Source of the DNA: Eikenella corrodens
Lineage (GTDB): Bacteria; Pseudomonadota; Gammaproteobacteria; Burkholderiales; Neisseriaceae
Direction: 5' to 3'
Assembly (NCBI RefSeq): GCF_003990355.1
Contig: NZ_CP034670.1
Location: 535,316-567,315 of the forward strand
DNA: 32,000 nucleotides
The position numbers and the translations under genes are program-made. Positions 4,872 to 14,998 of the stretch are shown piece after piece. The notes under the pieces are model-generated. The model did not search any database and was not told the origin of the DNA. It saw nothing but the letters and a program-made list of their open reading frames with translations. Within the stretch, counting starts at the first letter, position 1. Each line of letters opens with the position of its first letter.

Positions 4872-4921
4872 GGTTTTTCAGGTAGCCCTTATATATTTCG
4901 CGCCGTCGGGGGCTAGTCCTG

Positions 4922-4932
4922 ACGGTATCTTT
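4922..4932 (+). repeat. Core repeat ACGGTATCTTT, copy A (putative attL)
   Basis: Context: ctagtcctgACGGTATCTTTGccagacagg. The chromosomal REP-like palindrome is to the left and lower-GC phage DNA to the right. Confidence 0.65.
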
Positions 4933-5006
4933 GCCAGACAGGCATTATCCACATCATAAGGCTGGACTAGCTCTCTTTGATCAAGCTAACTCAAAGGAGC
5001 TTTTTT

Positions 5007-5297
5007 ATGTCTTATCAATTACCTACCTATCCAAACATTACCGCCTATCTAGGCCAGCAGCCAGGCGATCTCTTTTGCGAGCTCGCCATCAAACTGAACA
5101 TCGAATCGGATCGCAGCTTCATCCTCTTTGAACACATAATCGAATCAGATCACCTTTCAGCCGACAGCGTGCGCCGGTTACTCGATACCTACGTCAGATT
5201 CGTTATTGACGCCATCGAATTACAAATTCCCTTTTTCCGCAACGTATCAGAAACCGAGTTCGAGCAAGTTGTTCCCGGATTCGAAATGGTGGCGTAA
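5007..5297 (+). CDS. Hypothetical phage protein (96 aa)
   Basis: ATG at 5007 follows the RBS AAAGGAG (4993-4999). It is the first ORF of the prophage. I recognise no family. Confidence 0.6.
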   Translation: MSYQLPTYPNITAYLGQQPGDLFCELAIKLNIESDRSFILFEHIIESDHLSADSVRRLLDTYVRFVIDAIELQIPFFRNVSETEFEQVVPGFEMVA

Positions 5298-5365
5298 ATG
5301 GCTAAGAAGCATAAAAACGCGTACCGGATTACTCCGAAATTCGTCATGCCGAAGAAGCGGCGAAG

Positions 5366-6688
5366 ATGAAGCCGGCTGCGGCGGCGGATGGCCGCCCTGC
5401 GGCCGCCGCCGGAGCGGCCGGCGACAATCGCCCCCCTAGGCTAACAGGGGGGGAGCAAAAAACCCAAAGACCATTAGCGGGGGAGCAAAAAATTGACTGG
5501 GCGGCCTATCAGGAAAGCGAATACTTTAAAACCTTCGTGACCAACCAGCGCGGCAAGCTTATAGAAATCCCATTACGCAAAGGCCGTGAAGATGGCGCCC
5601 TAATCGACTATCTGACTTTCACTTTCAGAAGGGAAAGCCTGATTGAATATTTCAAGAATCGCATCATCGGCGATAACGAATACATCGTGGTTGCCAGCGA
5701 AATGTTACAAAAAATCTTCGGCTACGGCCTGACCAAAAAAATGCCAGGCAAAGGCAAGTTTTTCTATCAAGGCTATTACCAAGTCGGCCCCGATAACGCC
5801 CCATACGGCACCCTGCATTACGGCGGCCAGCGCGATACCGTCTTAGTCGACTTGACCGGCACCGGTTGCCAAGCCGCAAAGCCCGGCTGGGAAGTCCGCC
5901 TTTATCAATTTTTGCAGGTAGCCATTAACGCCCGTATTACCCGTTGCGACGTTGCCCATGATTTTTTCAACGGCGAATACACCCCGGAACAAGGCATTTC
6001 CGATCATGCAAAAGGTTTGTATGACAACCATAACATTCGCCCAAAAATCGAACGCCGCGGCACGGCATGGATGAACGAGGACAACACCGGCAAAACCCTC
6101 TACATAGGACGCAAAGGCTCTTCCAAGCTGCTGCGAATTTATGAAAAAGGCAAAAAGTTTGGCGATGAAAACAGCCCGTGGGTTCGTTTCGAAGTCGAAT
6201 TCAGAAAACACGATTGCCTGATACCCATAGATATTTTGCTGTATCCCGGGCAATACCTGACCGGCGCATTTCCGATTGGCGAGCAACTCTTTACCACTCC
6301 CGCCAGCCGTATAGAAACCAAAACCCAAACTGTGAACCTTTCCTTTGACCAAAAAGAATTTCACGCAAAAAACCAGGTAGGCCGCTTCGTCCGTTTCCTA
6401 GTCGATATAGGGCTACCTGATAAAGAAATCGTCAAAAGATTGTGCGGCGAACAAAACAAATATCCGAAAGGTTTAGATCCTTCCGAATACGATTGCGAAG
6501 CCATCAAAACTTATTACCTGCATGACGAAGGCTTCAAACCATTGGATATAGACCAATTCAAAATGACCTTGGATAACTATCTTTTAGATGATGCTTATGA
6601 AGATAGATTGAGTAATGCTCATAGAGTCGCAGAAGCATTAGTAAATCAGCAAGACTACGAATACTTTTTCATTCAAGAAAGGAATTAA
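5366..6688 (+). CDS. Phage replication initiation protein (Rep_trans / RstA-like rolling-circle initiator)
   Basis: 440 aa. Its position and blocks (IDYLTFTF, GYYQVG...GTLHYGGQRDTVLVDLTGTGC, ITRCDVAHDF, WVRFEVEFR) resemble replication initiation factors of Nf/CTX-type filamentous phages. The N-terminal ~45 aa are low complexity. Confidence 0.75.
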   Translation: MKPAAAADGRPAAAAGAAGDNRPPRLTGGEQKTQRPLAGEQKIDWAAYQESEYFKTFVTNQRGKLIEIPLRKGREDGALIDYLTFTFRRESLIEYFKNRIIGDNEYIVVASEMLQKIFGYGLTKKMPGKGKFFYQGYYQVGPDNAPYGTLHYGGQRDTVLVDLTGTGCQAAKPGWEVRLYQFLQVAINARITRCDVAHDFFNGEYTPEQGISDHAKGLYDNHNIRPKIERRGTAWMNEDNTGKTLYIGRKGSSKLLRIYEKGKKFGDENSPWVRFEVEFRKHDCLIPIDILLYPGQYLTGAFPIGEQLFTTPASRIETKTQTVNLSFDQKEFHAKNQVGRFVRFLVDIGLPDKEIVKRLCGEQNKYPKGLDPSEYDCEAIKTYYLHDEGFKPLDIDQFKMTLDNYLLDDAYEDRLSNAHRVAEALVNQQDYEYFFIQERN

Positions 6689-6691
6689 CAA

Positions 6692-7012
6692 ATGGATTTC
6701 AGCAAATTACAACAGCCACTTTTCGAACGCGCCATCATCATGGGCGTAACCCGTTTTAAAGGCGAAATTGACGGCAGTGAAATTGATTCATGCACCGTTT
6801 TCCGTGCTGCTCCCTTCAATGATGCCAGCGGCAATGCAATGGGTCTTGGCCTGGCTAAAGTTCGTTTCGGCAGCAGCAGCAACTTTGACCGTTTTGCCGG
6901 TCTGACCTTCCCTTGTGAGCTGGAAATTCAGCTTGCCCGCGTAACCAACGGCAGCGGCAAAGAAACCGTCGTTATGAAAGACTTCCGACCGGTTGCCGAA
7001 GCCAAAAAATAG
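6692..7012 (+). CDS. Hypothetical phage protein in the position of the ssDNA-binding protein (gV analogue)
   Basis: 106 aa, RBS AAGGAA, directly downstream of rep. The function is inferred from gene order only. Confidence 0.6.
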   Translation: MDFSKLQQPLFERAIIMGVTRFKGEIDGSEIDSCTVFRAAPFNDASGNAMGLGLAKVRFGSSSNFDRFAGLTFPCELEIQLARVTNGSGKETVVMKDFRPVAEAKK

Positions 7013-7025
7013 AAAGGCGTAAGCC

Positions 7026-7241
7026 ATGGAAGAACGCTACATCGTGCAGGATTTGGACACCTTCGAATTCCTGTACCCGGAAAGAACGGGCGGAATAGGT
7101 TTAACGCCCTATCTCAAGTTGGCCGGGCATTTCTCAACCCGTGCCGATGCAATGGAAGCCGGAATAGACGAACTGGGTTCAGAGTTTGCCGTTTTCGCCT
7201 TCTTCGTACCGCAAGAATCGAACAAAGAAACCAAACAATAA
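7026..7241 (+). CDS. Hypothetical phage protein (71 aa)
   Basis: ORF with RBS AAAGG upstream, co-oriented within the phage operon. Confidence 0.55.
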   Translation: MEERYIVQDLDTFEFLYPERTGGIGLTPYLKLAGHFSTRADAMEAGIDELGSEFAVFAFFVPQESNKETKQ

Positions 7242-7319
7242 AGGGGCTTTCTGTCGTTGCCGGGCGGCCAGCGACATTAAACCTTTGAGAAGCCGCCCAC
7301 TAATTTTTTGGAAGCAGGA

Positions 7320-7463
7320 ATGTTAACCGGTATTGCACACATCATCGTTCCGCTGATTAGAGAGCAGGGGTTCATTGATATGCTGATTCAATATATGGGA
7401 GTCATATTGGGAGTAATTTTTCTTTTTTTTTGTTTTGAAGCATTAACGTTATCCGGTAAGTAA
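7320..7463 (+). CDS. Small hydrophobic phage protein (47 aa, not in ORF track)
   Basis: Hand translation: MLTGIAHIIVPLIREQGFIDMLIQYMGVILGVIFLFFCFEALTLSGK. It has one predicted TM segment. Its size and position before the coat gene resemble minor coat proteins. It contains a T9 tract (7423-7431). Confidence 0.4.
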   Translation: MLTGIAHIIVPLIREQGFIDMLIQYMGVILGVIFLFFCFEALTLSGK

Positions 7464-7508
7464 CTGAAAAATCTTTCACGATCCATTAATTTTTCGAGAG
7501 GAGTAAAA

Positions 7509-7658
7509 ATGCCATTTTATAGTTATGAAGAATTTGAAGAAGCCGTTGGAGAAATCGACGATGATGAAATGGTAGATGATTTCCATACTTGGGAAGAGCT
7601 TCAGGAAGAGTATCCGGATGGCGTATTTGACGAAGATGCCGAATTTATCCCGTTCTGA
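7509..7658 (+). CDS. Small highly acidic phage protein (49 aa, not in ORF track)
   Basis: RBS GAGAGGAG, then ATG at 7509: MPFYSYEEFEEAVGEIDDDEMVDDFHTWEELQEEYPDGVFDEDAEFIPF. Confidence 0.45.
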   Translation: MPFYSYEEFEEAVGEIDDDEMVDDFHTWEELQEEYPDGVFDEDAEFIPF

Positions 7659-7741
7659 TTGTTTTTAAGAAATTAACGCTATCCGGGCGGCGTTAATCAA
7701 GTAAATGCCCGATTTGAAAACTTGTTTTAAAGGAAAACATC

Positions 7742-7957
7742 ATGTTGAAACTGAAACATAAAGCTACGGCCTTGGCCGTTATGGCCTCCGCCTTCATCGC
7801 TACTAACGCTTCCGCAGGCGCGGTAGCTGACGCAGTAACCGCCGCTACCGGCGATTTCAAAACCGACTTGGCTTCAGTTGGCGGTATTGCCGTAGGTCTC
7901 GGCCTGATCGGTATCGCCTTCATCGCCGGTATCCGTTTGATTAAACGCGCGGTCTAA
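7742..7957 (+). CDS. Major coat protein (pVIII-like)
   Basis: 71 aa. Signal peptide MLKLKHKATALAVMASAFIATNASA, an acidic/amphipathic mature N-terminus, a hydrophobic core VGGIAVGLGLIGIAFIAGI and a basic tail RLIKRAV; this is the classic inovirus coat architecture. Confidence 0.85.
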   Translation: MLKLKHKATALAVMASAFIATNASAGAVADAVTAATGDFKTDLASVGGIAVGLGLIGIAFIAGIRLIKRAV

Positions 7958-7975
7958 AGAGTAAGGGCGGGCATC

Positions 7976-8281
7976 ATGGAAGGCTATTTGGCAGGAGGTC
8001 AATGCTTCGGCTCTGTGCAGGAAGCGTCCGATTACAAAATGTCTCAAGTGGTGCCTGCCATTACCGCAGATGGGAGCCTAAAAACTCCCGTCTATCAAAA
8101 CGGCAAGTGGTATTACGGTTCGCAGGAAGTCAAGCTGACTTTTCCGCCGTGCGATCCAGCCGCCTACGTTACAGATGGCGTCCTAATCGCTTCAGTCGCC
8201 ATATCAGTTGCCGCTTTCGCCTTCGTTATACGTTGGACAATCCGCGTATTCCAACAAGCCAATGAAAATCCCGAAAAATGA
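7976..8281 (+). CDS. Phage membrane protein (101 aa, C-terminal TM)
   Basis: The ORF follows the coat gene. TM segment VLIASVAISVAAFAFVI. Its stop overlaps the next start (ATGA at 8278-8281). Confidence 0.6.
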   Translation: MEGYLAGGQCFGSVQEASDYKMSQVVPAITADGSLKTPVYQNGKWYYGSQEVKLTFPPCDPAAYVTDGVLIASVAISVAAFAFVIRWTIRVFQQANENPEK

Positions 8282-9009
8282 GCGATCCGAACAAAATTCA
8301 GCCGCCTAAGAAGGGTATTGAAATGGTTAAAGGCGGGGGCTATCCCGCTAAAGCCGTTTCTACCAGCGTTCAGCAGCATACCGCGCCCATTCAAACCGAT
8401 ATGTATTTGATCGGAGCCGAAGCGGTTAAATGGGCATTGATTGGGCTGGCTTTTTATGCTGCTTTCCGTTTGTTTAGAAGCGCCATCATGGATGCCTTGG
8501 GCTTTAGAAAAAGCCGGAAGGAAGCCAAAGAAGCGGAAGCGTTGAATGAAAACGGATTGGAAAACTTGGATCAAGATCCAATGAGTGAAGAAGAACAAGA
8601 AACATATATTCCAAGTAGTGACCCATTAACTGAATTTGAAGGTTTGGACGGAGAAGAACCGCCGGACAATATGCCGGACAGTCCCGAAGAAGATCCGGGT
8701 TTGCAATACGATTTAGAAAATGAGCGGTGGGAAATTAATGCCAGTGCCGCTTTGCAAGAAGGTCATGAATATGGTTCGGATGAGTTTTATAGCCGTATTG
8801 CGGAATTAGAGGAAATGGATAGGTTGGTTGAAGAGTATGAACCTTCTGAATCTGACGATGAGCCGCCGGAATCCGATATGTCGTTAGATGATGAAGCTTT
8901 GGAAATAGCGGTTGCGGAATCAGATGACTGGGAAAAAGAGGCTAACTCCGGTGCGTTGGATGAGCGTGTGGAACGAATAAAACAGGAATTGCAACAGGAA
9001 AATCAATAA
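8278..9009 (+). CDS. Membrane-anchored, extremely acidic phage protein (243 aa)
   Basis: One TM segment (WALIGLAFYAAFRLF) followed by a ~170-aa D/E-rich tail. It is translationally coupled on both sides. Confidence 0.65.
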   Translation: MSDPNKIQPPKKGIEMVKGGGYPAKAVSTSVQQHTAPIQTDMYLIGAEAVKWALIGLAFYAAFRLFRSAIMDALGFRKSRKEAKEAEALNENGLENLDQDPMSEEEQETYIPSSDPLTEFEGLDGEEPPDNMPDSPEEDPGLQYDLENERWEINASAALQEGHEYGSDEFYSRIAELEEMDRLVEEYEPSESDDEPPESDMSLDDEALEIAVAESDDWEKEANSGALDERVERIKQELQQENQ

Positions 9010-9077
9010 TGCCACCTGAAATCTACTTTCTGGCCGGTTTTGCCGTAGTTATTCCAGCAGTCATCATGTTTTTATAA
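9009..9077 (+). CDS. Tiny hydrophobic peptide (22 aa, not in ORF track); possible minor coat protein
   Basis: Its ATG overlaps the preceding stop (TAATG). Translation: MPPEIYFLAGFAVVIPAVIMFL. Its size and hydrophobicity are like pVII/pIX-type proteins. Confidence 0.35.
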   Translation: MPPEIYFLAGFAVVIPAVIMFL

Positions 9078-9114
9078 AACTGCGGCCAATGTTTAAACTC
9101 AAAGGTAAACAACA

Positions 9115-10242
9115 ATGATTTCACTGATTACGGGTCTGCCCGGCATGGGCAAAACCTCCCTAATGGTCTATATGCTGCTCAATCGCAAAGATTTGCAGAA
9201 TAGGCCGGTTTATGTTGACGGCATTCCGGAGCTACAAGTCAAACATGAAGAAGTACCCGAAGGCGAAAGCATGGAAACATGGCATAAATGGGCGCCGGAT
9301 GGCTCAATCCTCGTTATTGACGAAGCCCAAAGGGTCTTTCGTCCACGCCCCGCGGGGGCGAAAGTACCCGACTATGTTCAGGCTCTTGAAACGCATCGCC
9401 ATAAGGGCATTGATATCTTTGTGCTCACGCAACATCCGCGGTTGATTGACGTCCACCTTAGAAGTTTGATTGGTGAGCACCGCAACATCAGCCGCACCAT
9501 GCTCGGCCTGCGCCGTGTCTCTTACTGGCAGCGTTGCGCCAATCCCGAAGCCAGGGCAGACGTGGCCGAAGCCAAAAATAGCATATTCATGCCGAAAAAA
9601 AGCGTGTTCGGTATGTACAAATCCGCCAGCGAACACACCAAGCTTAAAGGCTCGGTCAGCGCGTGGATTTACACCATCCCCGTTGTGATCGTCATAGTCG
9701 GCTATCTTATGTCTTACGTTTGGGCAAGCTATCAACGCAAAATCCATCCTGAACAAGCCCAGCCGCAGCAGGTACAACCTTATCAACAGCAGCCGCAAAA
9801 CTACCAGCAGCAGGCAGGCGGCCAGTATCCAGCAGCAGGCAGCTATGCCGAACAAACGGCCACCGTACAACAGCCGCCCGATAACAACCTGAAGCCTGAA
9901 GATTGGCAACCTGCCATAGACGGCCAGCCGTGGACGGCTCCTATTTACAACGGCCATAACCGCAATATCCAAACCATGCCCTACCCTGTTGCCTGCGTGC
10001 AAACTGATACAAGCTGCACCTGTTACACCGAACAGGCCACGCCTTTGGAACTGCCTGCCAAGCAATGTCAAAACTACGTGAAGAACGGCATATACAACCC
10101 CTATAAGGCGCGGCAGGAAACCGCCGACAACGTACCGCAGGGCAGTTACGGCGGCGGCAGCGGGGCAAGTGTGCTGACTTTGGACAGTCCGGCTAAATCC
10201 ACCATGGCACATGCGGAAACTAGGGGGACTATGGGGCAGTAA
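9115..10242 (+). CDS. Zot / pI-family phage assembly NTPase
   Basis: 375 aa. N-terminal Walker A (ITGLPGMGKTS), Walker B-like ILVIDEAQ, a central TM (IYTIPVVIVIVGYLMSYVW), a Q/P-rich linker and a Cys-containing C-terminal domain. Confidence 0.85.
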   Translation: MISLITGLPGMGKTSLMVYMLLNRKDLQNRPVYVDGIPELQVKHEEVPEGESMETWHKWAPDGSILVIDEAQRVFRPRPAGAKVPDYVQALETHRHKGIDIFVLTQHPRLIDVHLRSLIGEHRNISRTMLGLRRVSYWQRCANPEARADVAEAKNSIFMPKKSVFGMYKSASEHTKLKGSVSAWIYTIPVVIVIVGYLMSYVWASYQRKIHPEQAQPQQVQPYQQQPQNYQQQAGGQYPAAGSYAEQTATVQQPPDNNLKPEDWQPAIDGQPWTAPIYNGHNRNIQTMPYPVACVQTDTSCTCYTEQATPLELPAKQCQNYVKNGIYNPYKARQETADNVPQGSYGGGSGASVLTLDSPAKSTMAHAETRGTMGQ

Positions 10243-10253
10243 GGCTGCCTGAA
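10242..10253 (+). repeat. DUS variant AGGCTGCCTGAA (non-Eikenella dialect)
   Basis: It overlaps the last base of the zot-like stop codon (10240-10242) and differs from the host 12-mer at one position (A to G). Confidence 0.6.
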
Positions 10254-10268
10254 ATTTAAGGATGAATT

Positions 10269-10529
10269 ATGGCTATCTACATCATATCTGATGACCTACC
10301 CAAACCCGACAAATGGCATGGCGTGCATTATCTTAATTGTCTGCATCAACTGAACCATAACTCTGAAATTGAGTATCAGATGTTTTGCAACGTATTGAAA
10401 AAAATGTCTGACGGCAGGTTGAAAATCGAAGTGTTCGGCTATCGTTACTTTATTCGGAAGGACTCGATAAACAGGAGCTACATACGCTATGTCGATGCAG
10501 ACAGGGTAACTTGCCGCAGGCGGGGCTAG
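10269..10529 (+). CDS. Hypothetical phage protein (86 aa)
   Basis: RBS AAGGAT, AT-rich ORF. I recognise no family. Confidence 0.5.
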   Translation: MAIYIISDDLPKPDKWHGVHYLNCLHQLNHNSEIEYQMFCNVLKKMSDGRLKIEVFGYRYFIRKDSINRSYIRYVDADRVTCRRRG

Positions 10530-10619
10530 ATTAGATGCCTGACGGAATTGACTGCTTGCAGTCGATTTCGGCAGGTATCCGCCAAGCGATAGCGCGGCAG
10601 GGGTGCTACAAACGGCATG

Positions 10620-10640
10620 AGGCTACCTGAAAAGGTAGCC
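10620..10640 (+). repeat. Host-type DUS AGGCTACCTGAA with partial inverted copy (GGCTACC/GGTAGCC hairpin)
   Basis: This is the only exact Eikenella-type DUS core inside the prophage. It lies in the 175-nt non-coding gap 10530-10704. Confidence 0.75.
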
Positions 10641-10704
10641 AAACCTGCCCGGATTGGTTAAGCTGGCCTTTCGTTTATTTTATGAATGAAAGGTTGTTGC
10701 AAAC

Positions 10705-10860
10705 ATGATTTGGGCTTTATTGATTTTATTAGCTCTTTCTTATATTGCCAGCGGTAAGAAAATGACAAGCGGTTTTGGTGATAAGCTTGCTTGGGTCTTG
10801 TTGGTTCTGTTCTTGGCGGCTTTAGCCTATGGTTTTTATATGGCTAATTATGCGGAATAA
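10705..10860 (+). CDS. Small two-TM membrane protein (51 aa, not in ORF track)
   Basis: Hand translation: MIWALLILLALSYIASGKKMTSGFGDKLAWVLLVLFLAALAYGFYMANYAE. Confidence 0.4.
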   Translation: MIWALLILLALSYIASGKKMTSGFGDKLAWVLLVLFLAALAYGFYMANYAE

Positions 10861-10871
10861 GGGGGCTTTAA

Positions 10872-11144
10872 ATGGATTGGAATCAATGTTTTTTGATGCA
10901 GCCTGATGGCGGTAGTTATGCAACGAATTTTAATAATTATCTGACTTTTGTTGTGAATGGGTATAACAGTTTGGTACCGGATGGACAGCCAGATTTTTTT
11001 AAACCGGTATATTTGGGCGTAATGATGAGTCCGGCGCAGTTGGCTGTATTGCGCGCTAACCGGCATTTATTTGATGAGAGTTTTAATGATGCTTTGGAAC
11101 GGTTACAAAAGAGCTATGACAGGCTTCAAGTGGAGGTGGGTTAG
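10872..11144 (+). CDS. Hypothetical phage protein (90 aa)
   Basis: RBS AAGGGGG. It overlaps the start of the next ORF. Confidence 0.5.
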   Translation: MDWNQCFLMQPDGGSYATNFNNYLTFVVNGYNSLVPDGQPDFFKPVYLGVMMSPAQLAVLRANRHLFDESFNDALERLQKSYDRLQVEVG

Positions 11145-11430
11145 TTTATTTTCTCTGCTGAGTGTAGCGGTGCAGGTATGGGCAGATGTACCAGCTTATC
11201 CGCCGCAGAATGTACCTTCAATCCAGCGTTTGGCTGCTGCGCCGAATGGGCAATTAATGACAGGCTATAGCTCTGTTAATGGTAATTGGTCTTATGATAT
11301 GAATTCTGGTGTAGCTAAGGTTGATAGGTTTCGGAATGTCAATCGCGGTGCAGGTGGCCTAGTCGGCACCAAAACCAACCCCGTCAACCTGACCGACAAC
11401 TACGGCAACGTCGCCCGCGGCCAGATCTAA
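11071..11430 (+). CDS. Signal-peptide-bearing N-terminal fragment of the adsorption (pIII/TspB-like) protein
   Basis: The sequence ...MTGFKWRWVSLFSLLSVAVQVWA-DVP looks like a Sec signal. The ORF ends at TAA 11428-11430, in the same frame as the 11443 ORF. Confidence 0.55.
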   Translation: MMRVLMMLWNGYKRAMTGFKWRWVSLFSLLSVAVQVWADVPAYPPQNVPSIQRLAAAPNGQLMTGYSSVNGNWSYDMNSGVAKVDRFRNVNRGAGGLVGTKTNPVNLTDNYGNVARGQI

Positions 11431-11442
11431 ACACAAACCGCC

Positions 11443-12723
11443 ATGCCTGCTAACTCTAGAATAGCTCAAGGTCTCGGCTCTATTTATGTCCTGCAAATTG
11501 CCAACCAACATCTAACCAACCTCAAAGCCCAAGGCGTGTCTGAAATGTACAGCCGCGGCTTCGAAGAAGGAGACTGGGGGCAGGTTGCCAACGCCACCGC
11601 CAAGCTGTTTGACTGGACAGGCTTCGGCAGTAACGTAGCAGACAGCCTTTACGGCAATGCAGATATTCAGCAGTTAAATCAACAATTGCAACAGCAGGCT
11701 TTGGCACAGGCACAACAGCAGTTTCAAAACTATCAGGCAGTACAGCAACCACAGCGTATAGACCCTAATCAATATGCACAGTATAACGTCGTTAAGTTTT
11801 TTCAAGACAACCCTGTTAATGTGGATAGAAGCAGTTATGAAATAGTCGTTAAAACAACCCGTAAGGCAACTTATGAAGATGGTTGGTATGACATGTACGA
11901 CCATGGGCAAACATTTACGCACAATATAAATAGTACAAATGACACTTTTACCTACACCTTCCCGCCGGGCAATAGATTCGTGATGTTCGTCGTTCGTCCG
12001 GCCACCGCCCAAGACATCCGAAATTACAACCTATCCAATGCTCCCCAGTTGTCCGAAATAGTGCCCAAAGAAGCGGAAGTAGCCCGCCTGCTCGAACAGA
12101 TCCTGAACGACAACAACCGTAATCACACAGAATTAATTAATGCCCTTTGGGGCGCCGGTGTGATTGGCCCCGGCAATACTCAAAGCATGGTAACCGGCAC
12201 ACCCGGCGACAACACATTTTTAACCGAACCCTATACCCCGGCCGGCTCCAATCAAGCCCAACAAACCCAGTTTGTAGTTAATAAAGACGGCACCGTAACG
12301 CAAACCATCGTCCAGCGGCCTGATTTGGCCGCCAACACGAGCCAAGCACCGACCAGGGCAGAAGTCGGGCAAAGTCAGCAGCAGGCGCAGGACACGCGAC
12401 AAGCGAAAGAAAACAGTACTGCAGAAAAGCCCGATATTTGCGCGCAAAACCCGAATAGCTTGATGTGTGCGCCCATGGGCAATATCGATTATCAGGACCT
12501 AGTATTGCCACAGCAAAACATCAATATCGCCCTATCCCCGCTGCATATCTTTAATACAGATGCAGCCTGTCCCGCTCCTACTACGTTTAGCATAGCGGGT
12601 ACACAGCAAAGAATGAGTTATGAACCAATGTGTGATACTGCCCGCAAAGCACGCCCTTTTATTATTATGATGGCGATGACCGCCGCATTTTTGATGGTAT
12701 TCAGTGCCCTTAATCGCCGTTAG
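11443..12723 (+). CDS. TspB-like adsorption protein, C-terminal part (no signal peptide, no RBS of its own)
   Basis: 426 aa with a Q-rich linker. The C-terminal Cys-containing block (DICAQNPNSLMCAPMG...ACPAPTTF...SYEPMCDTARKARPF) plus a terminal TM anchor (IIMMAMTAAFLMVFSAL) matches what I recall of Neisseria phage TspB C-terminal domains. Confidence 0.7.
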   Translation: MPANSRIAQGLGSIYVLQIANQHLTNLKAQGVSEMYSRGFEEGDWGQVANATAKLFDWTGFGSNVADSLYGNADIQQLNQQLQQQALAQAQQQFQNYQAVQQPQRIDPNQYAQYNVVKFFQDNPVNVDRSSYEIVVKTTRKATYEDGWYDMYDHGQTFTHNINSTNDTFTYTFPPGNRFVMFVVRPATAQDIRNYNLSNAPQLSEIVPKEAEVARLLEQILNDNNRNHTELINALWGAGVIGPGNTQSMVTGTPGDNTFLTEPYTPAGSNQAQQTQFVVNKDGTVTQTIVQRPDLAANTSQAPTRAEVGQSQQQAQDTRQAKENSTAEKPDICAQNPNSLMCAPMGNIDYQDLVLPQQNINIALSPLHIFNTDAACPAPTTFSIAGTQQRMSYEPMCDTARKARPFIIMMAMTAAFLMVFSALNRR

Positions 12724-12733
12724 GCAGCCTGAA
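12722..12733 (+). repeat. DUS variant AGGCAGCCTGAA (non-Eikenella dialect)
   Basis: It overlaps the stop codon of the TspB-like gene and differs from the host 12-mer at two positions. Confidence 0.6.
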
Positions 12734-12752
12734 AAACTTGAAAGGAAGGAAT

Positions 12753-13040
12753 ATGGGCAAAACCCTAGCCGGTATGTTTACCGCAGTTTTGACTACCCTA
12801 GCAGGCAAAATCATCATGGCATTAGGCATTTCCGCTATTTCTTACACCGGCCTAAACCTGCTGCAAACCCAAATGATTAACGCCCTAACCGGCCAGCTCT
12901 CTGCTGCCCCGCTCTCCGCCGTCCAGATTATGTATATAGGCGGTCTAGGGGTGGCCCTAAACTGGATACTGGGTGCAGTAGCCTTTCTCGTTTCCTTCAA
13001 TTCGGTAGCCAAGCTCGGCAGCATCTTTCGACAGAAGTAA
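12753..13040 (+). CDS. Small polytopic membrane protein, pVI-like minor coat candidate
   Basis: A strong RBS GAAAGGAAGG precedes the ATG at 12753. 95 aa and mostly hydrophobic; it immediately follows the adsorption gene, as pVI does in other inoviruses. Confidence 0.65.
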   Translation: MGKTLAGMFTAVLTTLAGKIIMALGISAISYTGLNLLQTQMINALTGQLSAAPLSAVQIMYIGGLGVALNWILGAVAFLVSFNSVAKLGSIFRQK

Positions 13041-13088
13041 CACAGGATAGAATAGACAATCTAACTGGTTCAAAACTTGCTTAAAGCA

Positions 13089-13158
13089 TAAAGCCGCATC
13101 ACGCCTGCATTTAGCCTTGTCATTTAGACAATGGGAAAGATTGGCGGATGTGGCTTTA
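13089..13158 (+). ncRNA. Candidate bridge/seek-RNA target-binding module for the downstream IS110-family recombinase (hypothesis)
   Basis: A 16-bp stem (13089-13105 with 13143-13158; one G-U, one bulged A) closes an 11+11-nt internal loop capped by the hairpin TTGTC-ATTTA-GACAA. AATGGGAAAGAT (13130-13141) is the exact reverse complement of ATCTTTCCCATT at the right junction (14279-14290). It lies in an ORF-free 176-nt gap. No expression evidence is available. Confidence 0.3.
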
Positions 13159-13176
13159 CTTATGTCGAAAATCAAT

Positions 13177-13187
13177 ACGGTATCTTT
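13177..13187 (+). repeat. Core repeat ACGGTATCTTT, copy B (internal, 29 nt upstream of the recombinase ATG)
   Basis: Context: aatcaatACGGTATCTTTGtccacagaca. It is either a third recombination site or a donor-matching guide segment of the putative RNA. Confidence 0.55.
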
Positions 13188-13216
13188 GTCCACAGACACA
13201 ATATAAGGATTGCAAC

Positions 13217-14179
13217 ATGCAAAAAATCGCACTTGGATTAGATATATCCAAATTGACTATAGACGCATATTTTAATGGTCAAAAAGATTTTATCCGCGTT
13301 ATGAACAATAAATCCGGTATAGAAAAATTGATTGAGCGCATAAAAAACTATCAGCAACAAAGCAAGGAGATTCATGCTTGCTGCGAATACACCGGCGTTT
13401 ATTACTTACCGCTGGCCAGCTCATTGCATGATTCAGGAATCAAAATCAGCGTAATCAACCCGCTTTCTATCAAGCTATACGGGGAATACAGATTAAGACG
13501 AACAAAAACCGATAAACAGGATGCGAAACTAATTGCCGATTATTGCGAAAAAGAAAATCCGCCATTATGGAAACCGCTATCAGAAAAACGTAATACTTTA
13601 AAAGTTTTAAATAGACGTATCGAACAACTAAACGTATTACTGAACATGGAAAGCAATAGAAAAGACGTATCAGATTCGGTAATAAAGTCAGGTATAGGAA
13701 GAATAATTAACGCAATAAAAGAAGAAATAGAAAGCTGTAAAACAGCCATTCAAAACCTGATAGATTCTGACGAAGAATTAAGCCATAACCAAAATCTATT
13801 GCAAACAATCAGCGGGGTAGGAAAAACTACAGCCGCATGGCTTTTGTCCGTACTGGTTGATATAGATAAATTCGAGAACTCAAAGAAGTTAATCAGCTAT
13901 TTAGGACTATCGCCCGTAATCAAAGATTCAGGCACAAGTGTTAGACAAGCCAAAATATCCAAGATGGGCGATAAGAAAGTAAGGAAAGCGCTTTACTATC
14001 CGGCGCGGGCAGTTTGTCTAAGATCCAAACTGTGGCGGCCTTGGTTTGAACAAAAGATAAAACAGGGCAAGCACCCAAAGCAAATCTATGTCCTGATGAT
14101 GTGCAAAATCGTCAAATACGCCTATGCCGTGATTAAAACAGGTCAGCCGTTTGACGAGATGCGGCACAAACAGGCGTAA
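13217..14179 (+). CDS. IS110-family DEDD recombinase/transposase (Piv/Irg-like)
   Basis: Start taken at MQKIALGLDISK (ATG 13217, RBS AAGGA). DEDD-type N-domain (GLDISK, CCEYTGVYY, KTDKQDA) and C-terminal Transposase_20-like region (ISGVGKTTAAWLL...LGLSPVIKDSGTS). About 320 aa and AT-rich. Confidence 0.88.
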   Translation: MQKIALGLDISKLTIDAYFNGQKDFIRVMNNKSGIEKLIERIKNYQQQSKEIHACCEYTGVYYLPLASSLHDSGIKISVINPLSIKLYGEYRLRRTKTDKQDAKLIADYCEKENPPLWKPLSEKRNTLKVLNRRIEQLNVLLNMESNRKDVSDSVIKSGIGRIINAIKEEIESCKTAIQNLIDSDEELSHNQNLLQTISGVGKTTAAWLLSVLVDIDKFENSKKLISYLGLSPVIKDSGTSVRQAKISKMGDKKVRKALYYPARAVCLRSKLWRPWFEQKIKQGKHPKQIYVLMMCKIVKYAYAVIKTGQPFDEMRHKQA

Positions 14180-14273
14180 AACAGCAGTTTAAACTGTTGC
14201 AAAAAAGCGGCAGCCGATGGCTATCGCTGCATAACTGTTGCTTGCGTTTTTAAAAAGTTCTTGACTTTCGATT

Positions 14274-14284
14274 ACGGTATCTTT
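14274..14284 (+). repeat. Core repeat ACGGTATCTTT, copy C (putative attR)
   Basis: Context: ctttcgattACGGTATCTTTcccattcatgc. GC-rich host DNA and the lrgB-like stop (14303-14305) follow. Confidence 0.65.
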
Positions 14285-14302
14285 CCCATTCATGCGGCAC
14301 GC

Positions 14303-14998
14303 TCAAACGCCCAACAGCGGCACGATAATCGGGGCGAGGAAGGAGGTGAGAATGCCGTTGAAAATCAGGCCAAGGGTGGCGTAGGCGGCGAAGTGGCCGC
14401 TGATTTCCAGGCTGGCGGCAATGCCGATGGCGTGCGAGGCCGTGCCCTGCGCGATGGAGTGCGAGATGGGATTGCGGATGTGGCTGTGGTGCAGAATCCA
14501 AAAGCCGATAAATTGGCCGGTGAGCCCGGCAATCAGCACGGCGGCCACCGAAACGGCGGGGATGCCGCCCAGCACGTGGGTGATTTCCAGCGCAATCGGC
14601 ATGGTAACCGATTTGGCGGCGAGCGACTGGCTCACGTCGTGGCTGGCGCCCAGCCAGTGTGCAAACAGCACGCCGCTCACAATGCCCACCACGCTGCCCA
14701 CCAGCTGCGAGGCGGCAATCGGCAGCCATTGGCTGCGGATACGCGGCCACTGCTGATACATGGGGATGGCCAGGCACACAATGGCCGGTTGCAGCCAAAA
14801 GCCGACCATGCGGCCGGTTTGCATGAAATCGTCGTAGCGGATGCCGAAGAGTTTCAGGTAGCCGATGACCAAAACCGTGCTCACCATCAGCGGGTTGGCC
14901 AGCGGGCTGCCGCTGCGCAGGCGCAAAAACAGGCTGAAGCGGTAAACGGCGAGCATCATCAGAATCAGCACAACGGGATTGGTGGCGATTTCCCTCAT
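14303..14998 (-). CDS. LrgB/CidB (YohK) family membrane protein
   Basis: Start taken at MREIATNPVV (14998). It overlaps the upstream stop in an ATGA arrangement. About 231 aa, polytopic, with LrgB-like blocks (AKSVTMPIALEI, GTASHAIG). Confidence 0.85.
   Translation of the reverse strand: MREIATNPVVLILMMLAVYRFSLFLRLRSGSPLANPLMVSTVLVIGYLKLFGIRYDDFMQTGRMVGFWLQPAIVCLAIPMYQQWPRIRSQWLPIAASQLVGSVVGIVSGVLFAHWLGASHDVSQSLAAKSVTMPIALEITHVLGGIPAVSVAAVLIAGLTGQFIGFWILHHSHIRNPISHSIAQGTASHAIGIAASLEISGHFAAYATLGLIFNGILTSFLAPIIVPLLGV

What the first reader, a model, noticed from the sequence alone, without database searches (positions are those of the whole stretch)
13041..13216. Candidate bridge (seek) RNA upstream of the phage-borne IS110-family recombinase, with a 12-nt guide-like match to the right integration junction
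The 176-nt gap between the pVI-like stop (13040) and the recombinase ATG (13217) has no ORF. Bases 13089-13105 (TAAAGCCGCATC-A-CGCC) can pair with 13143-13158 (GGCG-GATGTGGCTTTA), giving 16 bp with one G-U and one bulged A. This stem closes a symmetric internal loop of 11+11 nt (TGCATTTAGCC at 13106-13116 and TGGGAAAGATT at 13132-13142). The loop is capped by the hairpin TTGTC-ATTTA-GACAA (13117-13131). The 3' loop strand plus two hairpin bases, AATGGGAAAGAT (13130-13141), is the exact reverse complement of ATCTTTCCCATT (14279-14290). That 12-mer is the right part of the repeated core plus the first six chromosomal bases at the right prophage junction. Thirty-five nt further on lies a 12-nt same-sense copy of the core, ACGGTATCTTTG (13177-13188). 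This order (stem, internal loop with a target-complementary strand, then a donor-like segment, just 5' of the recombinase gene) resembles the bridge/seek RNAs reported in 2024 for IS110-family elements such as IS621. I am not aware of such an RNA being described for filamentous phages that integrate with IS110-type enzymes. Caveats: the 5' loop strand does not match the present left flank, I could not fold a convincing second (donor) loop by eye, and the two loop strands could partly pair with each other.
Basis: partly seen in the sequence, partly recalled or inferred. Interest (0 to 1): 0.88.

Follow-up and report, generated by a model that had tools for sequence, protein, structure and literature searches.

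The report
Bridge RNA of a filamentous prophage
The non-coding stretch in front of this filamentous prophage's IS110-type recombinase very probably encodes a bridge RNA whose guide segments match the phage's own ends and the host site it entered, which is the edge of a DNA uptake sequence.

Summary
The stem-loop at 13089-13158 and its 12-nt complement to 14279-14290 are real.

**Junctions.** The prophage runs from about 4890 to 14280 and is flanked by a CT core (4888-4889 and 14281-14282), not by the 11-bp ACGGTATCTTT. An empty site in a metagenome reads ..CAGGTAGC-CT-TTCCCATT...

**Target loop.**
- The 5' loop strand UAGCCUU equals left target plus core. The left target is the edge of the host Eikenella DNA uptake sequence.
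- The 3' strand AAUGGGAAAG pairs with core plus right target.
- The next AU pairs with the phage end, as an IS621-type handshake guide would.

**Covariation.**
- The stem co-varies: 17 of 20 pairs show double changes.
- The 3' strand tracks the right flank in 31 non-redundant loci (0 of 10,000 permutations).
- The 5' strand tracks five uptake-sequence dialects across 10 left junctions.

**Donor loops.** ACGGTATCTT is the left donor guide and occurs twice. One copy follows the target loop. The other sits in a complete donor loop at the prophage left end (4912-4971), just downstream of a promoter assembled across attP. That attP arrangement was confirmed in two circular inovirus genomes.

**Recombinase and limits.** The recombinase matches IS621 (E = 1.5e-46). 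No RNA or activity data exist. I found no paper in the searchable library describing this for inoviruses.

The parts
4877..4889 (.). attL, host side. An inverted Eikenella DNA uptake sequence (TTCAGGTAGCC) forms the left target, followed by the CT core at 4888-4889. This copy carries one extra C compared with the empty site.
   Evidence: Empty site L156 reads CTTCAGGTAGC-CT-TTCCCATT. Ten related left junctions end in the host genus's uptake sequence. AGGCTACCTGAA occurs 24 times in the window.
4890..4896 (+). First bases of the phage (right donor, TATATAT). They form the -10 half of a promoter that is completed only in the circular form.
   Evidence: Circular inovirus genomes L161 and L162 read TTGACA/TTGACG-N17-TATATT across attP. 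[AG]TATAT is conserved at all left ends.
4912..4971 (+). Complete donor-binding loop (module A).
- Closing stem: GCTAGTCC 4912-4919 with GGACTAGC 4964-4971
- Left donor guide: ACGGTATCTT, 4922-4931
- Cap hairpin: 4933-4943
- Right donor guide: CAUAAG, 4955-4960
- Handshake dinucleotide: GC, 4961-4962
   Evidence: The closing stem is conserved with compensatory changes in 10 loci. UAAG or CAAG tracks CTTA or CTTG at the phage left end. GC pairs with target GC, and L093 has CU where its target has AG. The handshake rule is taken from PMC11208158.
13089..13158 (+). Target-binding loop.
- Stem: 13089-13105 with 13143-13158
- Left target guide: UAGCCUU, 13112-13118
- Cap hairpin: 13117-13131
- Right target guide: AAUGGGAAAG, 13130-13139
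- Handshake guide: AU, 13140-13141
   Evidence: Fold. Stem covariation. Covariance model hit at 13088-13216 at 118 bits, the only hit in the window. Guides match empty site L156. Covariation with flanks.
13177..13209 (+). Second donor-loop-like segment (module B, 3' half).
- Left donor guide copy: ACGGTATCTT, 13177-13186
- Cap: UGUC-CACA-GACA, 13187-13198
- Right donor guide: AUAUAAG, 13201-13207
- Following dinucleotide: GA, 13208-13209

It overlaps the recombinase ribosome-binding site. I found no conserved closing stem.
   Evidence: Conserved in all relatives, and the cap helix co-varies. AUAUAAG is the reverse complement of CTTATAT, which is core plus phage left end. Kingella-type relatives have CA instead of CT at the core position here.
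13217..14179 (+). IS110-family (Piv/IS621 branch) DEDD plus serine recombinase, 320 aa
   Evidence: Pfam DEDD_Tnp_IS110 and Transposase_20. IS621 transposase 8wt6 at E = 1.5e-46 over the full length. D9, E57, D99, D102 and S238 are invariant in 22 relatives.
14261..14266 (+). TTGACT, the -35 half of the attP junction promoter
   Evidence: TTGAC is conserved 8-10 nt before the left donor arm in relatives. The full promoter is seen in circular genomes.
14274..14290 (.). attR: left donor arm ACGGTAT (14274-14280), CT core (14281-14282) and right target TTCCCATT (14283-14290)

Best explanation
The Nf/MDA-like filamentous prophage at about 4890-14280 integrates by bridge-RNA-guided recombination of the IS621 type.

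**Target recognition.** The transcript upstream of the recombinase folds into a target-binding loop.
[quoted passage not shown] That target is the outer edge of a host DNA uptake sequence.
- The following AU is a handshake guide. It pairs with the phage's AT only after strand exchange.

**Donor recognition.** A donor-binding loop reads attP (..ACGGTAT-CT-TATATAT..) through ACGGUAUCU and (AU)AUAAG. Two copies exist.
- One follows the target loop and overlaps the recombinase ribosome-binding site.
- The other is complete, with a closing stem and a fully matched handshake dinucleotide. It lies at the prophage left end, directly downstream of a sigma-70 promoter that exists only when the phage is circular.

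**Reaction.** The recombinase then exchanges strands at CT.

**Shown versus inferred.** Shown by sequence: the anatomy, the structural covariation, the guide/target/donor matches and their covariation, attB, attP, and homology of the enzyme to IS621. Inferred: that the RNAs are made, that recombination needs them, and which donor loop is used.
For: **Enzyme**
- IS621 transposase structure matched at E = 1.5e-46.
- DEDD and Ser residues are invariant.

**Structure**
- In an unfitted 17-sequence alignment, 87.5% of cells are paired and 17 of 20 pairs show double changes. 0 of 500 shuffles reach this, and slid controls give 28-46%.
- A covariance model hits 51 of the 99 sources searched, never more than once in any source. 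Every hit is on the + strand. In each locus checked, the hit ends just before the recombinase start.
- The hits reach recombinases at 33% identity and IS-sized elements outside the Neisseriaceae.
- The model-fitted alignment has 90% of cells paired.

**Right target**
- Register-free test: 41 of 55 cognate pairs have 9 nt or more of complementarity, against 167 of 2970 non-cognate pairs.
- In-register test: 4.8 versus 1.85 contiguous pairs beyond the core, 0 of 10,000 permutations.
- Single-base compensations occur in WIN versus L003 and L081, in L014 versus L015, and in L094 versus L096 versus L097.

**Left target**
- The 5' strand reads TAGCC, ACGGCC, GCTGCC, GCAGCC or GCAGC where the flank carries the matching uptake-sequence dialect.

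**attB and attP**
- The empty site matches both target guides exactly.
- attP and the junction promoter are present in two circular inovirus genomes.

**Handshake and topology**
- Handshake dinucleotides follow the IS621 rule: non-cognate pairing only. L093 shows a double compensation.
- Guide topology and the CT core are as in IS621.
Against: - There is no expression or activity evidence.
- No Rfam family matches, though Rfam 15 appears to hold no bridge-RNA model.
- The consensus scan found no sigma-70 promoter upstream of the target loop, so its transcription start is unknown.
- The donor-like segment next to the target loop has no conserved closing stem. In Kingella-type relatives it has CA instead of CT at the core position.
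- The MFE fold of module A in this window prefers an alternative hairpin that sequesters ACGG.
- The attL here carries one extra C compared with the empty site.
- Several relatives match their right flank poorly: L013, L087, L008, L086.
- The wobble versus A-C asymmetry does not by itself fix the folded strand.
Confidence: 0.85

Rival explanations
1. The hairpins act as DNA, not RNA. They could be folds of the packaged single strand (packaging signal, complementary-strand origin, or a CTX-like folded att site). Alternatively they could be double-stranded accessory sites bound by the recombinase, like sub1 upstream of Moraxella piv. On this view the copies of target and donor sequence are DNA mimics.
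For: - Filamentous phages use single-strand hairpins in intergenic regions (own knowledge).
- The packaged strand would normally have the same sense as the genes, so it could adopt the same folds.
- The DNA of module B does behave as a pseudo-site. L002 has a solo recombinase whose left boundary is exactly at the end of ACGGTATCTT, next to an uptake sequence.
- The wobble asymmetry is inconclusive.
Against: - The same architecture sits in front of related recombinases in IS-sized elements that are not phages (L018, L024).
- The guide layout, the CT core and the handshake dinucleotides reproduce point by point the RNA mechanism solved for IS621, whose enzyme matches this one at E = 1.5e-46.
- A junction promoter points into module A.
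Confidence: 0.07
2. The stem-loop is only a terminator of the upstream phage operon or a 5' UTR structure that controls recombinase translation. The complementarity to the junction is then incidental.
For: - It lies between the last structural gene and the recombinase.
- The downstream guide-like AUAAGG overlaps the Shine-Dalgarno sequence, so some translational coupling is plausible.
Against: - No terminator-like site is called there.
- A 16-bp stem with an 11+11 internal loop and no U tract is unlike an intrinsic terminator.
- A purely regulatory structure does not explain why loop bases track the chromosomal flanks and the uptake-sequence dialect.
Confidence: 0.04
3. The RNA is a functional bridge RNA, but only the canonical contiguous module (target loop plus the adjacent donor-like segment, 13089-13209) is used. 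The left-end loop (4912-4971) would be an inert duplicate or serve another purpose, for example as a leader of the early phage genes.
For: - In IS-sized relatives the contiguous module is the only one present.
- In this window its left donor guide is perfect, and its right donor guide matches attP over 7 nt, against 5 nt for module A.
Against: - Module A has the conserved, co-varying closing stem and both handshake bases, with a double compensation in L093.
- Module B lacks a closing stem. In Kingella-type phages it is mismatched at the core.
- Separate target and donor loop RNAs work for IS621.
Confidence: 0.3

Closest known systems
IS621 / IS110-group bridge RNA (Durrant et al. 2024, PMC11208160; Hiraizumi et al. 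2024, PMC11208158)
   Same: - The recombinase is a full-length homologue.
- The RNA is encoded 5' of, and co-oriented with, the recombinase.
- The target loop has a same-sense left guide on its 5' strand and a complementary right guide on its 3' strand.
- The core is CT.
- Two-base handshake guides pair only with the non-cognate DNA.
- The donor loop reads the element's ends.
- A promoter is assembled at the circle junction.
   Different: - The mobile unit is a filamentous phage genome of about 9.4 kb, not a 1.3-kb IS.
- About 8.2 kb of phage genes separate the junction promoter from the target loop.
- The donor loop is duplicated. The complete copy stands alone at the far end.
- Guide lengths are reversed: about 7 nt on the left and 10 nt on the right, against 9 and 4+ in IS621.
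- There is no detectable sequence match to any curated RNA family.
Neisseria Nf1-4 / MDA filamentous prophages integrating at dRS3 through their IS110-type (PivNM/Irg) transposase (Kawai 2005, as cited in PMC7058167)
   Same: - Same gene order: Rep_trans, Zot, TspB-like, DUF2523, with the transposase last.
- A CT motif at the insertion point.
- Nf-type loci in my set carry the same RNA model. Their right guides read CT-CGTCATTCC, which is the dRS3 arm.
   Different: - The target here is the edge of a DNA uptake sequence, not dRS3.
- None of the Nf papers I could search mentions a guide RNA.
IS1111-group seekRNA (Siddiquee et al. 2024, PMC11187229)
   Same: - RNA-guided DEDD transposase.
- In the circular phage, the stand-alone donor loop lies downstream of the recombinase gene, across the junction.
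   Different: - The target loop is upstream of the gene.
- No long subterminal inverted repeats were seen.
- The enzyme belongs to the short Piv/IS492/IS621 branch.
Moraxella Piv pilin invertase
   Same: - Related enzyme, 35% identity.
- Upstream of piv there is a left-guide, cap, right-guide module (TTGGTATCCT ... GCAAGCTAGG). It matches the inversion site TTGGTATC-CT-AGCTGC.
   Different: - It catalyses inversion, not integration.
- I saw only one loop.
- I did not analyse it further.
CTX-phi type integration of filamentous phages by host XerCD on a folded single-stranded attP (own knowledge)
   Same: A filamentous phage whose integration depends on a folded nucleic-acid element.
   Different: - CTX-phi uses a host tyrosine recombinase, and the fold itself is the DNA substrate.
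- Here the phage brings its own DEDD/Ser recombinase, and the folds carry guides for two other DNA sites.

Membership tests
IS110-family bridge RNA (IS621 type) | Non-coding and adjacent to, and co-oriented with, an IS110-family DEDD/Ser recombinase | tested here: met
   Model hit at 13088-13216 abuts the ATG at 13217. Recombinase identified.
IS110-family bridge RNA (IS621 type) | Target-binding internal loop: the 5' strand is identical to left target plus core, and the 3' strand is complementary to core plus right target | tested here: met
   UAGCCUU and AAUGGGAAAG against empty site ..TAGC-CT-TTCCCATT... Covariation with flanks.
IS110-family bridge RNA (IS621 type) | Donor-binding internal loop whose two strands read the element's right end and left end across the core | tested here: met
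   ACGGUAUCU equals left donor arm plus core. (AU)AUAAG is the complement of CT-TAT(AT). Present at 4912-4971 (complete) and at 13177-13209 (no closing stem). attP verified in circular genomes.
IS110-family bridge RNA (IS621 type) | The same core dinucleotide is read by all four guides | tested here: met
   CT is shared by both junctions in every locus with both ends. CU or AG occupies the corresponding guide positions.
IS110-family bridge RNA (IS621 type) | Handshake dinucleotides 3' of the right guides pair with the other DNA partner and not with their own | tested here: met
   AU (13140-13141) pairs with donor AT, not with target GC. GC (4961-4962) pairs with target GC, not with donor AT. 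L093 changes both partners together. Module B has only 1 of 2.
IS110-family bridge RNA (IS621 type) | Conserved secondary structure supported by compensatory changes | tested here: met
   unfitted alignment; fitted alignment
IS110-family bridge RNA (IS621 type) | Promoter reconstituted at the circle junction that drives the RNA | tested here: inconclusive
   A near-consensus TTGACA-17-TATATT spans attP, but it points into the stand-alone donor loop. The target loop is 8.2 kb further on, and no promoter was called upstream of it.
IS110-family bridge RNA (IS621 type) | The RNA is expressed, binds the recombinase and is required for recombination | not testable with these tools
   No transcript or biochemical data are available.
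IS110-family bridge RNA (IS621 type) | Match to a curated covariance model of the family | tested here: not met
   No Rfam 15 hit at the gathering threshold or at E up to 10. I saw no bridge-RNA family among the hits, so this probably reflects what the library contains.
IS110-family recombinase (Piv/IS492/IS621 branch) | RuvC-like DEDD domain plus a Tnp domain with the catalytic Ser-Gly motif; about 315-330 aa | tested here: met
   PF01548 and PF02371. 320 aa. D9, E57, D99, D102 and S238-G239 are invariant. Aligned to 8wt6 over residues 12-318.
IS1111-group seekRNA | Guide RNA encoded downstream of the transposase, with long subterminal inverted repeats | tested here: not met
   The target loop is upstream. 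The 94 nt downstream of the gene carry only the -35 box and the left donor arm.
Nf/MDA-type filamentous prophage | Inovirus gene set with an IS110-type transposase as the last gene | tested here: met
   Rep_trans, Zot, TspB-like and DUF2523. Related circular inoviruses have the same layout.
Nf/MDA-type filamentous prophage | Integration into dRS3 repeats | tested here: not met
   The target here is the uptake-sequence edge plus TTCCCATT.

The most novel reading that the evidence does not exclude
These phages are in effect giant IS110 elements whose bridge RNA has been taken apart.
- A target loop next to the recombinase is programmed against the host's own DNA uptake sequence. It follows the uptake-sequence dialect from genus to genus.
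- A separate donor-loop RNA is made only from the circular phage, by a promoter assembled across attP. Integration would therefore be licensed by circularity.
- Single-base changes in the right guide naturally retarget the phage to new uptake-sequence-adjacent sites.

A still bolder reading is not excluded by sequence alone: the packaged single strand could present the same folds and act as the guide itself. I give that about 0.03.
Probability: 0.4. Interest if true: 0.8.

Novelty: new variant of a known kind. Interest (0 to 1): 0.72.

Why it matters
- **Cargo size.** It would be a natural case of bridge recombination moving a whole phage genome of about 9 kb. That bears on the cargo limits of a system now being engineered for genome editing.
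- **Natural split design.** It offers a split arrangement (a separate donor loop under a junction promoter) and naturally optimised handshake bases.
- **Site choice in Nf/MDA phages.** It gives a mechanism for the long-known but unexplained site choice of Neisseriaceae filamentous phages. These include relatives of the meningococcal disease-associated MDA phage, which targets dRS3.
- **Parasitism of the uptake signal.** It shows a phage exploiting the host's DNA uptake signal as its landing pad.
- **Testability.** The guide-to-site code can be read from sequence, so integration sites become predictable and can be tested by guide swaps.

Tried and rejected
- **Rfam scans.** Scans at the gathering threshold and at permissive thresholds found nothing relevant.
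- **Repeat-flanked boundaries.** Treating the 11-bp ACGGTATCTTT repeats as prophage or mini-IS boundaries was rejected after the L003 comparison, the empty site and the circular genomes.
- **Naive stem finder.** A stem finder anchored on AGAT failed on bulged stems. It was replaced by a register-free match test and a covariance model.
- **Exact search for the empty site.** The first exact-pattern metagenome search found nothing. A search with the flanking protein found five empty sites.
- **RNAalifold.** On the first MAFFT alignment it recovered only part of the stem, because the Suttonella rows were misaligned.
- **Closing stem for module B.** I looked by eye across relatives for a closing stem around the module B donor segment and found none that is conserved.
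- **Wobble asymmetry.** G-U versus A-C counts were inconclusive for assigning the folded strand: 34 versus 25.
- **Promoter scan.** It found no sigma-70 site upstream of the target loop. A TAAAAT or TGCTAAAAT box sits 7-10 nt upstream of the stem in Kingella-type relatives, but this window has only TGCTTAAAG.
- **Literature.** Searches for bridge RNA together with filamentous, inovirus, prophage, Neisseria, Piv or DNA uptake sequence found no prior description.
Full report
**1. What is at the coordinates**

A 16-bp stem (13089-13105 with 13143-13158, one G-U, one bulged A) closes an 11+11 internal loop capped by TTGTC-ATTTA-GACAA. This is the RNAfold centroid (MFE -44.8 kcal/mol, z = -3.0).
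- AATGGGAAAGAT (13130-13141) is the exact reverse complement of 14279-14290.
- ACGGTATCTTT occurs at 4922, 13177 and 14274.
- The gene downstream (13217-14179) carries the two Pfam domains of IS110-family transposases. It matches the solved IS621 transposase over its whole length (8wt6, E = 1.5e-46). The DEDD and Ser residues are invariant among 22 relatives.
- The surrounding genes (Rep_trans, Zot, TspB-like, DUF2523) make this an Nf/MDA-like filamentous prophage.
- The host carries 24 exact copies of AGGCTACCTGAA in 32 kb. From my own knowledge this is the Eikenella dialect of the DNA uptake sequence. The dialect names, though not the sequences, are confirmed in PMC3630211.

**2.

- A 94%-identical prophage inserted at a different place (L003) is homologous to the window from about 4876-4890 to 14291. 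The left end therefore lies about 35 bp left of the ACGGTATCTTT at 4922.
- Ten related prophages all have the same left junction: the inverted uptake sequence of the host genus, then C-T-T, then [AG]TATAT.
- The trinucleotide CTT is the only sequence shared by the left and right junctions. This points to a CT core as in IS621, and matches what is reported for Nf1 at dRS3.
- A search with the right-flank protein recovered five unoccupied sites. L156 is syntenic on both sides and reads CTTCAGGTAGC-CT-TTCCCATTCATGCGG.
- Two circular inovirus genomes from saliva, with 51%-identical recombinases, give attP directly: TTGACA-cagaatACAGTAT-CT-TGTATATT....
- In this window, therefore:
  - attB = ..CAGGTAGC-CT-TTCCCATT..
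  - attP = ..TTGACTttcgattACGGTAT-CT-TATATATTT..
  - the core copies are 4888-4889 and 14281-14282
- The attL here has one extra C compared with the empty site.

**3. The target-binding loop**

- With the corrected junctions, both loop strands match attB.
- The 5' strand UAGCCUU (13112-13118) is identical to the top strand of left target plus core.
- The 3' strand AAUGGGAAAG (13130-13139) is complementary to core plus TTCCCATT.
- This is the topology described for IS621. There the left target guide pairs with the bottom strand and the right target guide pairs with the top strand.
- The next two bases, AU, pair with the AT that precedes the core in the phage right end. They do not pair with the GC that precedes it in the target. 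That is the rule found for IS621 handshake guides. It explains why the match to the present right junction is 12 nt while the match to attB is 10 nt.

**4. Conservation and covariation of the fold**

- The same element precedes the recombinase gene in Eikenella, Neisseria, Kingella, Alysiella and Suttonella loci and in IMG/VR inovirus contigs.
- In an unfitted MAFFT alignment of 17 sequences, 87.5% of cells in my structure are paired and 17 of 20 pairs show changes on both sides. 0 of 500 shuffles reach the observed values. Sliding the partner by 1-3 columns drops pairing to 28-46%.
- A covariance model built from that alignment hits 51 of the 99 sources searched, never more than once in any source, and always on the + strand. 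In each locus checked, the hit ends just before the recombinase start.
- The hits include 21 sequences not in the seed, recombinases down to 33% identity, and IS-sized elements in Cellvibrionales and Nitrospirales. The window has a single hit, at 13088-13216.
- On the model-fitted alignment, 90% of cells pair and all 20 pairs show double changes. This alignment leans towards the model.

**5. The guides track the targets**

- Register-free test: the longest complement between the loop region and the right junction is 9 nt or more in 41 of 55 non-redundant cognate pairs, against 167 of 2970 non-cognate pairs.
- In-register test: counting contiguous Watson-Crick pairs beyond the core, cognate pairs average 4.8 and non-cognate pairs 1.85. 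0 of 10,000 permutations reach the observed sum.
- The clearest cases are near-identical RNAs that differ by one base:
  - WIN has GGGAAAG with flank TTCCC; L003 and L081 have GGAAAAG with TTTCC.
  - L014 has GAAAUAU with ATATT; L015 has GAACUAU with ATAGT.
  - L094, L096 and L097 show the same pattern.
- On the left side, the 5' strand matches the dialect in the flank:
  - TAGCC next to the Eikenella dialect
  - ACGGCC next to the Neisseria AG dialect
  - GCTGCC next to the Kingella dialect
  - GCAGCC next to the Alysiella/Simonsiella dialect
  - GCAGC in L093, whose site lacks one C
- Exceptions exist (L013, L087, L008, L086, L022). One contig, L082, looks chimeric.

**6. The donor-binding loop occurs twice**

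- ACGGTATCTT is identical to the phage right end plus core, so it is the left donor guide.
- In module B (13177-13209) it is followed by a small co-varying hairpin (UGUC-CACA-GACA). Next comes AUAUAAG, the reverse complement of CT-TATAT, which is core plus the first phage bases. This segment overlaps the ribosome-binding site. I could not find a conserved closing stem.
- In Kingella-type phages, module B has CA where the core needs CT.
Its parts are:
  - a closing stem, GCTAGTCC with GGACTAGC
  - the left donor guide
  - a cap, GCC-AGACA-GGC
  - CAUAAG
  - the dinucleotide GC
- The closing stem is conserved with compensatory changes in ten loci.
- The base before AAG is U where the phage left end begins CTTA, and C where it begins CTTG.
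- The dinucleotide after AAG is GC where the target has GC before the core. It is CU in L093, where the target has AG.
- Separate target-loop and donor-loop RNAs support IS621 recombination in vitro, so a stand-alone donor loop is mechanistically plausible.
- RNAfold of module A in this window prefers a competing hairpin. Only comparative data support the loop form.

**7. Junction promoter**

- All right ends carry TTGAC 8-10 nt before the left donor arm. All left ends begin [AG]TATAT.
- In the circular genomes this gives TTGACA/TTGACG-17-TATATT.
- In this window it gives TTGACT with a 16-18 nt spacer, then TATATA or TATATT.
- It points into module A, which would therefore be made mainly from the circular phage.
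- No promoter was called upstream of the target loop, so how that loop is transcribed is open.

**8. Mechanism proposed**

- *Inferred:* after infection or excision, the circular phage expresses the recombinase, the target-loop RNA and a donor-loop RNA.
- *Inferred:* one recombinase dimer with the target loop binds the edge of an uptake sequence followed by TTCCCATT. The other dimer, with the donor loop, binds attP. Strands are then exchanged at CT and stabilised by the handshake pairs.
- *Shown:* the sequence relationships and their covariation, attB, attP, and the enzyme homology.
- *Not shown:* expression, RNA dependence, and which donor loop is used.

**9. Rivals**

- *Terminator or purely regulatory leader.* This does not explain why loop bases follow chromosomal flanks. 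No terminator is called there.
- *DNA-level role* (single-strand phage hairpin or accessory binding site). Sequence alone cannot strictly exclude this. It is unlikely because non-phage elements share the architecture and because every detail mirrors the RNA mechanism solved for a homologous enzyme.
- *Opposite strand.* Read on the other strand, the guide topology and the core would not fit the IS621 rule.

**10. Known or new**

- Bridge RNAs are established for the IS110 family. They were predicted in 85.7% of catalogued IS110-group elements. The enzyme here belongs to the Piv/IS492/IS621 branch. That an RNA exists is therefore expected.
- I found no paper in the searchable library that describes it for filamentous phages, for Nf/MDA, or for uptake-sequence targeting. 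Rfam has no matching family. The library is incomplete, so prior description elsewhere cannot be excluded.
- The variant features are:
  - the phage-sized cargo
  - the separation of the junction promoter from the target loop
  - the duplicated donor loop, with a stand-alone complete copy
  - left-guide programming against the host uptake sequence

Noticed in passing
L002:9971-11074 (Eikenella glucosivorans): A solo recombinase gene without the target loop. Homology to the window starts exactly after ACGGTATCTT (window 13187), and the sequence to its left is an uptake sequence (..TTTTCAGGTAGCC|TGTCTACAGAC..). This looks like a recombination or deletion that used the module B DNA as a pseudo-donor site and left the enzyme without its target guide.
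   Followed up: partly
L025, L026, L028 (Moraxella lacunata and M. nonliquefaciens piv), about 60-110 nt upstream of piv: Upstream of the Piv invertase gene lies TTGGTATCCT, a GGGAGCAAAACCC hairpin, then GCAAGCTAGG. This matches the inversion site TTGGTATC-CT-AGCTGC in the pilin gene just downstream of piv. It suggests a single-loop guide RNA for pilin inversion, possibly the element historically called sub1.
   Followed up: partly
L018 (Cellvibrionales) and L024 (Nitrospirales), upstream of their recombinases: The same target-loop plus donor-loop RNA, with the same ACGGTATCT donor arm, occurs in what look like ordinary IS-sized elements outside the Neisseriaceae. The phage system is probably derived from such an IS whose left end was split by the phage genome.
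   Followed up: partly
L107, L109, L114, L116, L121 (Nf-type loci, recombinase about 35% identical): Right junctions read ..GTAGTAT-CT-CGTCATTCC(C).., which is the ATTCCC arm of the meningococcal dRS3 repeat. The loop upstream carries the complementary AUGACGAG. The known dRS3 preference of Nf phages may be encoded in the same way.
   Followed up: partly
window 14474-14485: The 12-mer GCGGATGTGGCT, the 3' strand of the main stem (13144-13155), recurs exactly inside the chromosomal gene to the right of the prophage. 2 of 100 shuffles give two hits. Probably chance.
   Followed up: partly
window 12979-12992: TAGCCTTTCTCGTT inside the last structural gene resembles the attB sequence TAGCCTTTCCCATT with two mismatches. 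28 of 100 shuffles give such a hit, so it is not significant.
   Followed up: yes
L009, L010, L011, L017, L037, L085, L087, L161, L162: module B upstream of the recombinase: In Kingella-type phages, the donor-guide copy next to the target loop reads ACAGTATCAT (CA at the core position). The copy in the left-end loop keeps ACAGTATCTT. The adjacent copy may have lost its donor-binding function there.
   Followed up: partly
L014, L015, L022 (three copies in Suttonella ornithocola): The three copies have identical stems but quite different 5' loop strands (UUAUUAUUGA, CUCGUUUGG, CAUGUUCUG). Their left junctions were outside the fetched DNA, so I could not test whether these are three different left-target programmes.
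   Followed up: no
L082 (IMG/VR contig): This contig has a Kingella-type RNA and recombinase 5' part, but its 3' end and right junction are nearly identical to the Eikenella type. It is either a natural recombinant or a chimeric assembly. Its guide does not match its flank.
   Followed up: no
window 13148-13216: An in-frame ATG at 13148, inside the 3' strand of the stem, would extend the recombinase ORF by 23 codons. Homologues start at the position of 13217, so the extension is probably not used.
   Followed up: partly
window 10242-10253 and 10620-10631: The prophage itself carries one exact Eikenella uptake sequence (10620) and one copy with the Simonsiella-type variant AGGCTGCCTGAA (10242). 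This may hint at past residence in another genus.
   Followed up: no
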